NCBI GenBank assembly: GCA_013239625.1
Contig: MU056693.1
Span: forward strand, 372,001-436,000
Direction of reading: 5' to 3'
Source of the DNA: Lama guanicoe
Taxonomy: Eukaryota
Length of the DNA stretch: 64,000 nt
Below the pieces are notes generated by a model. It was not told the origin of the DNA. It searched no databases and saw only the letters and a list, made by a program, of their open reading frames with translations. The translations under genes and the position numbers were made by a program. How positions within the stretch are numbered: the first letter of the stretch is position 1; the number at the start of each line of letters is the position of its first letter. Below, piece by piece: positions 60,442 through 62,419 of this stretch.

Positions 60442-61372
60442 GCCCGGGTGAGAATCGGGCGCAGAGGAGGTGGGGCGGGAAGGGCTGGCGAGTCAGGGGC
60501 CGCGGGTTCCCAGGGTGGGCGGGGAGAGGGGAAAGGGCTGTTGGGGGCGGGTAAGAGCGGGCACCGGAAAGGAAAACGAAGTCTGGGGCTTGATCGCAGT
60601 GTGGAATGGGAGAGTTGAGTCAGGAGATGTGAGCCCCGCTGATATCCGAGGAGAAAGGAAGAAAGGTTGTGGGGCCGGAGAGGGGAAAACGGAGCTGGAG
60701 GAAATGGGACCCTGGTGAGGAATAGAAATCCACAGGCCGAGGGCGTGAGCCCCGCTGAAAGCAGGGAATCGAAAGAGACGTGCCGCGCGGTGGACAAATC
60801 TAGGAGGCGTGCGTCTCGCTAAGATGGGGGAGAGAGAGGGAGAAGGGCGGTATGGGGGTGCACCCCGAGTTGGGGGGAAGGAGCCTGCGTGGTGGGTGGA
60901 GACTCTGAGCCGAGTCTTTAGAGGTCTGCGGTCTTGGTTCGGGGAGTCTTAGCCCGAATGAGAGAGAGAGTAGGTAGCAGGCAAGGGGAGGGGGGCGCTC
61001 CGGATGAGCGACAGAGAGGGGGAATTGGGGAACTCCAAGAATGAAGGTTTGAGCTCCATGGGAGCGGGGATTCCTAGTCCACGGGTCTCAGACTGTGTGG
61101 AGTGGCAGGGACCGCGAGTACAAAGTGCCTGAAACCCGATGGGGGACAGGAATTCAGCGATACAGACACCGTATTCTAGGAGTATAGTGGTATTTGAACT
61201 TCTAGGCCCCGACCGAATCGGGTCCTCCAAGGCCCGCCTCAATTTCCCTTTTATTTCCCTCCCATCCCACTAGCCCCGGCGGGCGAAGCTCCAGAGACAC
61301 CGGGGCGAAGCTTGGAAAGCGACCCCACCCACTCCGTTCCCCAAACCCAGAGCTCGGCTGTTTGTCCCCGGA

Positions 61373-61571
61373 ACTACAATTCCCAGGAAGCAGCACGGCA
61401 GCGGCACCGGCGGCGGCTGCGCAAACGTCAACGGCGGCGGGAACGTTGGGGGCTTGTCCCACGCGCCGATTGGTCGAGAGCTAGCGCTGCTACGGAGCCC
61501 GCGGAAAACGCGCGGCAAGACCTTTGTTTGCAGACCTCGTTCCTGCGGCTGGTCGTGGCGGCAGAGGCAGC
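61373..61571 (+). promoter_or_regulatory. RNASEH2A: RNASEH2A promoter
   Basis: ZNF143/THAP11-type ACTACAATTCCCAG 61373-61386; E2F-like GGCGGGAA near 61436; ATTGG near 61469; CpG island. Confidence 0.75.
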
Positions 61572-62419
61572 ATGGATCTCAGCGAGCTGGAGAGAGACAA
61601 TACGGGCCGCTGTCGCCTGAACTCACCTGTGCCCGCTGTGTGCCGCAAGGAGCCCTGCGTACTGGGCATCGATGAAGCGGGCCGGGGCCCTGTGCTGGGT
61701 GCGCCCCCAGGGCCGGGTCGGGGAGGGGCGTGTTGAGGGGGATGCAAGTTTCCCTGGAACAGGAGTCGGAATTGCACCGGACTCAGGGAAGGGGAGGGGT
61801 AATAGTGGTGATGGCCACGACATTGGTGATGGCTTCAAAAAATAGCGGTGATAATGAAATAATAGGGACGGCGACTTTCATGGGCTCACTTGTTGGACCT
61901 CCGCTTCCCCAGGGCCCATGGTCTATGCCATCTGCTATTGCCCCCTGACCCGCCTGGCAGATCTGGAAGCCCTGAAAGTGGCAGGTGAGCCCTGGGGTAC
62001 ATCTAGGGAGGGGGGCTCCTGGGCATATTCAGGGGCGGGTACAGGCTGGAGCGGGAGAGCAGAAACTAGGTGAACTAGCCGCTTTCATTCTCTCCCAACC
62101 CTCCTCCCAGACTCAAAGACCCTGTCGGAGAGCGAGCGGTTCAGGCTCTTTGCGAAAATGGAGGAGGACGGGGACTTTGTGGGCTGGGCACTGGATGTGC
62201 TGTCTCCAAACCTCATCTCTACCAGCATGCTTGGGCGGTGAGGGGGGCCCCGGGGTGGAAGGGCAGCCAGCATGGGCTGGAAGGGATGGGTGGCTGGAAC
62301 GAGGTTGACTGAGCTCTGTTCCCCATCGCAGGGTCAAATACAACCTGAACTCCCTGTCCCATGATACAGCCACTGGGCTGGTGCGGTATGCGTTGGACCA
62401 GGGTGTGAAAGTGGCCCAG
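61572..62419 (+). CDS. RNASEH2A: Ribonuclease H2 catalytic subunit A, exons 1-4 (continues beyond window)
   Basis: Exons 61572-61698, 61913-61984, 62111-62237, 62332-62419 give [14 protein letters not shown]...[17 protein letters not shown]...ADSKTL...[12 protein letters not shown], including the catalytic DEAG motif. Confidence 0.97.

What the first reader, a model, noticed from the sequence alone, without database searches (positions are those of the whole stretch)
60442..61572. Possible splice-through from the THSD8-like gene into RNASEH2A (bicistronic or readthrough unit)
Seen: a donor CGG|GTGAGA lies 6 nt after the stop codon (60447/60448). I found no AATAAA or ATTAAA between the stop and the RNASEH2A ATG. 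A strong acceptor (CTCAAT branch, tttcccttttatttccctcccatcccacTAG|) sits at 61273/61274, about 300 nt upstream of the RNASEH2A ATG and upstream of its ZNF143 promoter motif. Inference: THSD8 transcripts splice into and run through the RNASEH2A promoter and exon 1. That would give a THSD8-RNASEH2A bicistronic, possibly NMD-sensitive mRNA, or transcriptional interference, linking PRDX2 promoter activity to a genome-integrity gene.
Basis: partly seen in the sequence, partly recalled or inferred. Interest (0 to 1): 0.72.

Follow-up and report, generated by a model that had tools for sequence, protein, structure and literature searches.

The report
THSD8 mRNA splices into RNASEH2A
The small secreted-type gene THSD8 splices, six letters after its stop codon, into the promoter region of the neighbouring DNA-repair gene RNASEH2A in many mammals, so its mRNA likely borrows all of RNASEH2A as its tail and would be destroyed in most tissues but likely survive in male germ cells.

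Summary
The splice is real. An RNA-Seq run of a close relative holds a contig joining 60447 to 61274 at depth 848, against 3.7 and 6.2 for intron-keeping contigs: over 99% spliced. Off-frame ORFs called on database contigs and gene models show the same donor, 6 nt after the stop, in camel, pig/whale-like, carnivore, bat, rodent and lemur sequences. 14 of 27 informative ORFs are spliced, 13 of them at or near this acceptor. The new exon contains RNASEH2A's ZNF143 promoter motif and runs into its first coding exon.

Best reading: THSD8 lacks its own 3' end and uses RNASEH2A's eight exons and ATTAAA as a 1.27-kb 3'UTR. That places seven junctions 431-1068 nt after its stop, an NMD signature that male germ cells read weakly. 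Single-molecule continuity past exon 1, NMD, tissue and RNASEH2A translation were not shown.

The class (read-through gene) is known. RefSeq/UniRef models in cat, seal, lemur and dingo already merge the two genes. My searches found no paper on it.

The parts
58015..58646 (-). PRDX2 5' part (ATG at 58167; first-intron donor near 58646), head-to-head with THSD8 on a shared CpG island
   Evidence: ORF list; donor located; CpG o/e 0.85 at 58500-58999
58979..59129 (+). THSD8 exon 1, coding part (AUG in GGCATGG context; hydrophobic signal-peptide-like N-terminus)
   Evidence: spliced model equals Vicugna pacos THSD8 P0025 letter for letter
60242..60447 (+). THSD8 exon 2: TSP1-like domain, stop TGA 60439-60441, 6 nt of 3'UTR
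   Evidence: TSP1 likeness from ESM Atlas neighbours at 0.83-0.87, a lead only
60448..61273 (+). 826-nt GT-AG intron removed from the THSD8 3'UTR
   Evidence: RNA contig joint 60447->61274, depth 848 vs 3.7/6.2
61238..61273 (+). branch-point-like CTCAAT, pyrimidine tract and TAG acceptor
   Evidence: branch point by consensus only
61274..61698 (+). THSD8 exon 3 = RNASEH2A promoter + 5'UTR + coding exon 1 (425 nt if it uses the RNASEH2A exon 1 donor)
   Evidence: junction-spanning ORFs map 61273-61617; dingo and lemur models continue into exon 2
61373..61386 (+). ZNF143/SBS-type motif ACTACAATTCCCAG of the RNASEH2A promoter, exonic in the read-through mRNA
   Evidence: its translated trace is in 13 of 14 spliced ORFs; the motif name is recalled
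61523..61533 (+). candidate second acceptor in the RNASEH2A 5'UTR
   Evidence: sequence; lemur and Phyllostomus RefSeq models enter at or shortly after this region
61572..63913 (+). RNASEH2A ATG and exons 1-5 (exons 6-8, stop and ATTAAA lie beyond the window, ATTAAA at window-equivalent 65529)
   Evidence: model translates to a 299-aa RNase H2 subunit A

Best explanation
THSD8 mRNA splices from a donor 6 nt after its stop codon to an acceptor 298 nt upstream of the RNASEH2A start codon, and it likely has no 3' end of its own, likely running through all eight RNASEH2A exons to the RNASEH2A poly(A) signal as a read-through mRNA that is predicted to make mainly THSD8 protein and predicted to be cleared by nonsense-mediated decay except where that pathway is weak, likely in male germ cells. 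Shown: the junction, its dominance in one RNA run, its conservation, entry into RNASEH2A exon 1. Inferred: continuity to the RNASEH2A end, translation of THSD8 only, NMD, germ-cell accumulation. RNASEH2A protein would come mainly from the gene's own shorter mRNA started at the promoter that lies inside THSD8 exon 3.
For: Junction at >99% in RNA run X5. 14 of 27 informative off-frame ORFs are spliced at the +6 donor; the other 13 read through it and keep the donor-compatible [GS][EV]. 13 of the 14 continue into the 61274 exon; spacing from junction to RNASEH2A ATG is 97-100 codons in 6 of 6 ORFs measured (camel, pig/whale-like, two carnivore, fruit-bat-like, cricetid-like). RefSeq lemur X1 and UniRef dingo models continue into RNASEH2A exon 2; cat THSD8 is filed as 'ribonuclease H2 subunit A isoform X3' and a seal chimera as 'isoform X2'. 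18 hand-picked assembly contigs bearing full-length THSD8 have median 1728 nt, none under 1000 nt, against 1620 nt for the full model from the AUG. First canonical hexamers after the stop lie in RNASEH2A intron 4 and at the RNASEH2A end. Seven junctions 431-1068 nt after the stop. 5 of 5 runs on record as RNA that hold the stretch are labelled reproductive system. PMC9723633 (passages): meiotic and post-meiotic germ cells recognise downstream junctions inefficiently.
Against: Only 1 of 4 laid runs was informative, as unstranded contigs; no contig downstream of 61302 was laid, so continuity rests on assemblies and automated gene models, which fuse overlapping transcripts. The database ORF set was found with the off-frame query and is biased to long open frames. 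No human spliced ORF was seen (the human-compatible ORF P0003 is unspliced). 'Reproductive system' does not prove testis, and these runs may be one campaign. PMC9723633 also reports that many junction-bearing mRNAs are still degraded in germ cells. No expression ratio against RNASEH2A's own mRNA was obtained.
Confidence: 0.62

Rival explanations
1. Exon 3 is a terminal exon: THSD8 mRNA overlaps the RNASEH2A promoter and exon 1 but is cleaved at a variant signal in RNASEH2A intron 1 (AATGAA 61853, AATAAT 61858), or further on in intron 4 (ATTAAA 62867, AATAAA 63558). An intron-1 end would leave only the 6-nt junction and make the mRNA NMD-immune.
For: Hexamers exist; the exon 1 donor TGG|GTGCGC is far from consensus; off-frame ORFs stop at 61617 and so cannot show what follows; contigs can fuse overlapping mRNAs.
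Against: Intron-1 hexamers are weak variants without a clear U/GU-rich element; lemur and dingo models splice on into exon 2; contig lengths cluster near the full read-through length.
Confidence: 0.17
2. A working bicistronic mRNA: ribosomes reinitiate or bypass THSD8 and make RNASEH2A, supplying RNase H2 in spermatids while transcription over the RNASEH2A promoter silences it.
For: Intact RNASEH2A ORF, no AUG in the 304-nt spacer, spacer less folded than shuffles (z +2.3), spacer length conserved; mouse round spermatids hold Rnaseh2a mRNA and protein (PMC5177979 passages).
Against: 909 of 2000 shuffles also lack an AUG; three in-frame AUGs and a 116-codon ORF precede it, and reinitiation after long ORFs is poor (general knowledge); spacer length is explained by promoter conservation; the mouse paper does not give isoforms in the text read; no mention in the STREMI bicistronic survey (main text and 11 supplement files, one cut).
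Confidence: 0.13
3. The junction serves a chimeric or alternative-frame protein (the +1 frame is open for 233 codons across the model; dingo and lemur models fuse it in frame to RNASEH2A).
For: Frame open in this genome; chance about 0.125 x 0.21 from shuffles; a tandem acceptor at 60198 would give a 248-aa product; seal RefSeq X2 is such a product.
Against: No AUG in that frame in the model; the frame after the junction differs between lineages (camel/pig/seal/rodent vs dingo vs P0005); the ORF set was selected for openness; most such ORFs are gene-caller products on transcript contigs.
Confidence: 0.04
4. Leaky, functionless read-through from the PRDX2 bidirectional promoter.
For: Read-through between close neighbours is common (PMC2953495 passages).
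Against: Depth 848 and >99% splicing; donor position fixed in 27 of 27 informative ORFs; THSD8 protein conserved in 44 hits.
Confidence: 0.04

Closest known systems
Conjoined / read-through genes (Prakash et al. 2010, PMC2953495; passages read)
   Same: Exons of two same-strand neighbours in one transcript, canonical GT-AG, novel exon sequence from the intergenic region, conserved across mammals, often NMD candidates.
   Different: The commonest pattern drops the upstream last exon and the downstream first exon; here both ORFs stay whole, the downstream promoter becomes exon, and the spliced form is the dominant THSD8 form in the run examined.
Mammalian bicistronic mRNAs (MIURF-MIEF1, PYURF-PIGY, ASDURF-ASNSD1, STREMI-SLC35A4; PMC13303939 section 7 read; SNURF-SNRPN and CERS1-GDF1 recalled)
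   Same: A short conserved ORF upstream of a full second ORF on one mRNA.
   Different: RNASEH2A keeps promoter elements of its own inside the spacer, so the long mRNA is not its only source; translation of the second ORF is not shown.
Automated annotations of this locus (RefSeq XP_045406166.1 lemur, XP_032251966.1 seal, XP_044902226.1 cat, XP_045709298.1/300.1 Phyllostomus; UniRef A0A8C0JWI8 dingo)
   Same: They merge THSD8 and RNASEH2A exons; seal and dingo use this very junction.
   Different: They present it as odd RNASEH2A or THSD8 protein isoforms, not as the normal THSD8 3'UTR. I recall that human GENCODE lists a THSD8 transcript running through RNASEH2A; this is recall, not checked by any search.

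Membership tests
Conjoined / read-through gene | transcript combines exon sequence of two distinct same-strand genes | tested here: met
   junction in RNA; assembled ORFs run from THSD8 exon 2 to 61617, past the RNASEH2A ATG; contig level, not single molecules
Conjoined / read-through gene | parents encode separate proteins | tested here: met
   116-aa THSD8 and 299-aa RNASEH2A in different frames
Conjoined / read-through gene | canonical splice sites | tested here: met
   GT at 60448, AG at 61272-61273
Bicistronic mRNA | two complete conserved ORFs on one molecule | tested here: inconclusive
   true of the model; continuity to exon 8 rests on gene models and contig lengths
Bicistronic mRNA | both ORFs translated from that molecule | not testable with these tools
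   needs reporters or isoform-resolved ribosome profiling
Bicistronic mRNA | polycistronic form is the main source of the second ORF | tested here: inconclusive
   promoter motifs and CpG island (o/e 0.85-0.89) lie directly before RNASEH2A; no start-site data obtained
Exon-junction-dependent NMD target | junction more than 50-55 nt after the stop | tested here: inconclusive
   not met by the 6-nt junction; met by seven junctions at 431-1068 nt if the mRNA reads through
Exon-junction-dependent NMD target | stabilised when UPF1/SMG6 is lost | not testable with these tools
   Smg6 knockout supplement unreadable; no hit in 6 supplement files of PMC10337212

The most novel reading that the evidence does not exclude
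THSD8-RNASEH2A is an obligate transcription unit kept across placental mammals in which NMD is the tissue switch: the long mRNA is destroyed in somatic cells, accumulates in spermatids, overrides the RNASEH2A promoter it transcribes across, and itself supplies both a secreted TSP1 protein and RNase H2A.
Probability: 0.12. Interest if true: 0.8.

Novelty: new member of a known kind. Interest (0 to 1): 0.48.

Why it matters
If THSD8's normal mRNA contains all of RNASEH2A, then gene-level 'RNASEH2A' counts, probes, knockdowns and knockouts in testis also measure or disturb THSD8, an unstudied conserved secreted-type protein. Variants in the RNASEH2A promoter or exons (an Aicardi-Goutieres gene, recalled) would act on two genes. 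It also offers a clean natural test of the open question of how far male germ cells ignore downstream exon junctions, and of whether transcription through a ZNF143 promoter tunes a genome-integrity gene.

Tried and rejected
Missing AATAAA as evidence: rejected (861 of 1000 shuffles lack it). AUG-free spacer as evidence for bicistrony: weak (909 of 2000). A structured IRES-like spacer: not supported (less folded than shuffles). Retrocopies that would prove continuity: none, one match each for exon 2 and exon 3 in G000. Metagenome scan with the THSD8 alignment gave 1 weak locus of 475 stretches (21 residues, 62%), not used. Pfam scan of exon 2 was in the off frame and says nothing about THSD8. 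My first THSD8 model (131 aa, acceptor 60196) was replaced by the 116-aa form; exon borders were off and were corrected. Literature: THSD8 in 4 papers (2 passages read, gene-list mentions); 0 papers for RNASEH2A+PRDX2+readthrough, Gm49661, RNASEH2A+ZNF143+promoter; 3 unrelated listings; 1 listing for recalled identifiers, not read; no RNASEH2A occurrence in the 25 listed of 370 papers. Earlier scan findings: none.

Full report
Locus. The window is mammalian: JUNB, PRDX2 (minus strand), THSD8 and RNASEH2A (plus strand). The THSD8 model 58979-59129 + 60242-60441 gives 116 aa identical to Vicugna pacos THSD8; 44 of 44 candidates in the true-frame search were relatives, with conserved cysteines and a C-terminus that ends at the same place in nearly all. 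RNASEH2A, completed with the next stretch of G000, gives 299 aa and has ATTAAA 40 nt after its stop.

Observation. Every coordinate is right. The lack of a poly(A) hexamer is uninformative (861 of 1000 shuffles) and so is the donor motif alone (57 in the window), but the acceptor is among the best 3 of 2461 YAG sites.

RNA. Of 24 runs listed, 5 holders are on record as RNA, all labelled reproductive system. Four runs were laid on 60360-61565. X5, a relative about 97% alike, has a 59-nt contig joining 60447 to 61274 at depth 848.3, and two intron-holding contigs at 3.66 and 6.23, i.e. 99.3-99.6% spliced. The skipped part is the 826-nt GT-AG intron; the tool reports the joint as 60447-61276 with two letters (CT) between, which is one substitution in the second exon base. 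X1 and X22 laid nothing; X19 gave 7 reads, none over the junction. Contigs give no strand, start or end, nothing beyond 61302 was laid for X5, and the RNASEH2A coding exons were outside the stretch, so RNA continuity into exon 2 is left open.

Conservation. Searches with the off frame of exon 2 returned 29 ORFs; that frame has no stop before the donor, so each ORF reports what follows the donor. 2 lack the donor region. Of 27, 13 read into the intron (all [GS][EV] after the split codon, as expected for a GT donor 6 nt after the stop) and 14 are spliced. 13 of the 14 continue into sequence matching the exon from 61274 on (mapped one representative per cluster; P0005 enters about 15 nt later or has a deletion); the lemur model enters about 23 nt before the ATG. 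By codon compatibility with named orthologues the spliced ORFs are Camelus-like, pig/whale-like (5 members, 33 contigs), carnivore (seal RefSeq X2, dingo UniRef, one Logan), fruit-bat-like (2 members, 10 contigs), one probably bat (61 of 63, weak), cricetid-like and lemur. Split codons agree: the fruit-bat-like pair reads S-E unspliced and T-P spliced, this genome G-E and A-P. The ZNF143 motif's translated trace is in 13 of 14. Junction-to-ATG spacing is 97-100 codons in 6 of 6 measured. Two Phyllostomus RefSeq THSD8 isoforms splice from an internal exon 2 donor into the same exon. Cat THSD8 is filed as an RNASEH2A isoform. The human-compatible ORF is unspliced, so the donor is kept in human but its use was not seen.

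Where it ends. The first canonical hexamers after the stop are in RNASEH2A intron 4 (62867, 63558) and at the RNASEH2A end. The ten-exon model is 1620 nt from the AUG; 18 assembly contigs with full-length THSD8, picked by hand (chromosome-length rows, partial proteins and proteins with intronic ends left out; 9 of the 18 sequences inspected), have median 1728 nt, 13 between 1400 and 2000, none below 1000. Lemur and dingo models splice on to exon 2. This favours full read-through, but assemblies fuse overlapping transcripts.

Mechanism. Shown: junction, dominance in one run, conservation, entry into RNASEH2A exon 1. Inferred: THSD8 uses RNASEH2A's exons as a 1269-nt 3'UTR. Only three AUGs, all in the THSD8 frame, precede the RNASEH2A AUG, with a 304-nt spacer; a strong first AUG and a 116-codon ORF make RNASEH2A translation from this mRNA unlikely by general rules. 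The 6-nt junction is NMD-neutral; seven more at 431-1068 nt are not. PMC9723633 (passages) reports that downstream junctions were not enriched among transcripts raised by Smg6 loss in spermatocytes or round spermatids, and cites weak recognition of this signal there, while noting that many such mRNAs are still degraded; long 3'UTRs were enriched. PMC5177979 (passages) shows Rnaseh2a mRNA and protein in mouse round spermatids without giving isoform sizes in the text read. High abundance in a reproductive-tissue run fits survival in germ cells, but tissue is known only by the label.

Comparison. It meets the definition of a conjoined gene (PMC2953495, passages) at contig level, and differs from the commonest pattern in keeping both ORFs and exonising the downstream promoter. 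It works like a bicistronic unit in layout only; neither gene name was found as a candidate in the main text or supplements of the STREMI survey (one file cut, and the gene may be listed under another name). Ten paper searches found no description, in an open-access library only. Automated RefSeq/UniRef models already contain the junction, and I recall a human GENCODE THSD8 transcript through RNASEH2A (unchecked).

Verdict. Real, dominant and conserved splice; known class; partly annotated, apparently unexplained. Interest 0.48; 0.8 if the long mRNA proves to be an NMD-gated source of both proteins.

Noticed in passing
window 58751-58978: An upstream in-frame ATG at 58751 could add 76 residues to THSD8; pig-like Logan contigs (190 aa, 26 contigs) and Pteropus and leopard RefSeq models (194, 198 aa) have such extensions, hinting that THSD8 transcripts start right beside the PRDX2 start.
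   Followed up: partly
window 60195-60198: Tandem AG pair upstream of the main exon 2 acceptor: 60196 gives a 131-aa in-frame THSD8, 60198 a 248-aa product shifting into the open +1 frame; the seal RefSeq X2 model uses an upstream acceptor of this kind.
   Followed up: partly
window 58979-61619 (spliced): The +1 frame is open for 233 codons across THSD8 exons 1-3; 627 of 5000 synonymous shuffles and 414 of 2000 spacer shuffles are open, so modestly unusual, but it has no AUG of its own.
   Followed up: partly
window 60551 and 60715: Two further donor-like sites (CGG|GTAAGA, CTG|GTGAGG) inside the intron; no joint from them in run X5.
   Followed up: partly
window 60250-61749: The removed intron and exon 3 form one CpG-rich stretch (o/e 0.73-0.89) with strong G skew on the + strand (0.30 at 60001-61000), a possible R-loop-prone region just upstream of the gene for an RNA:DNA hybrid nuclease; speculation.
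   Followed up: no
window 60565-60769: A few single-cell reads of run X19 pile on an A/G-rich intronic patch, 4 of 7 only partly aligned; could be internal priming or a minor end.
   Followed up: no
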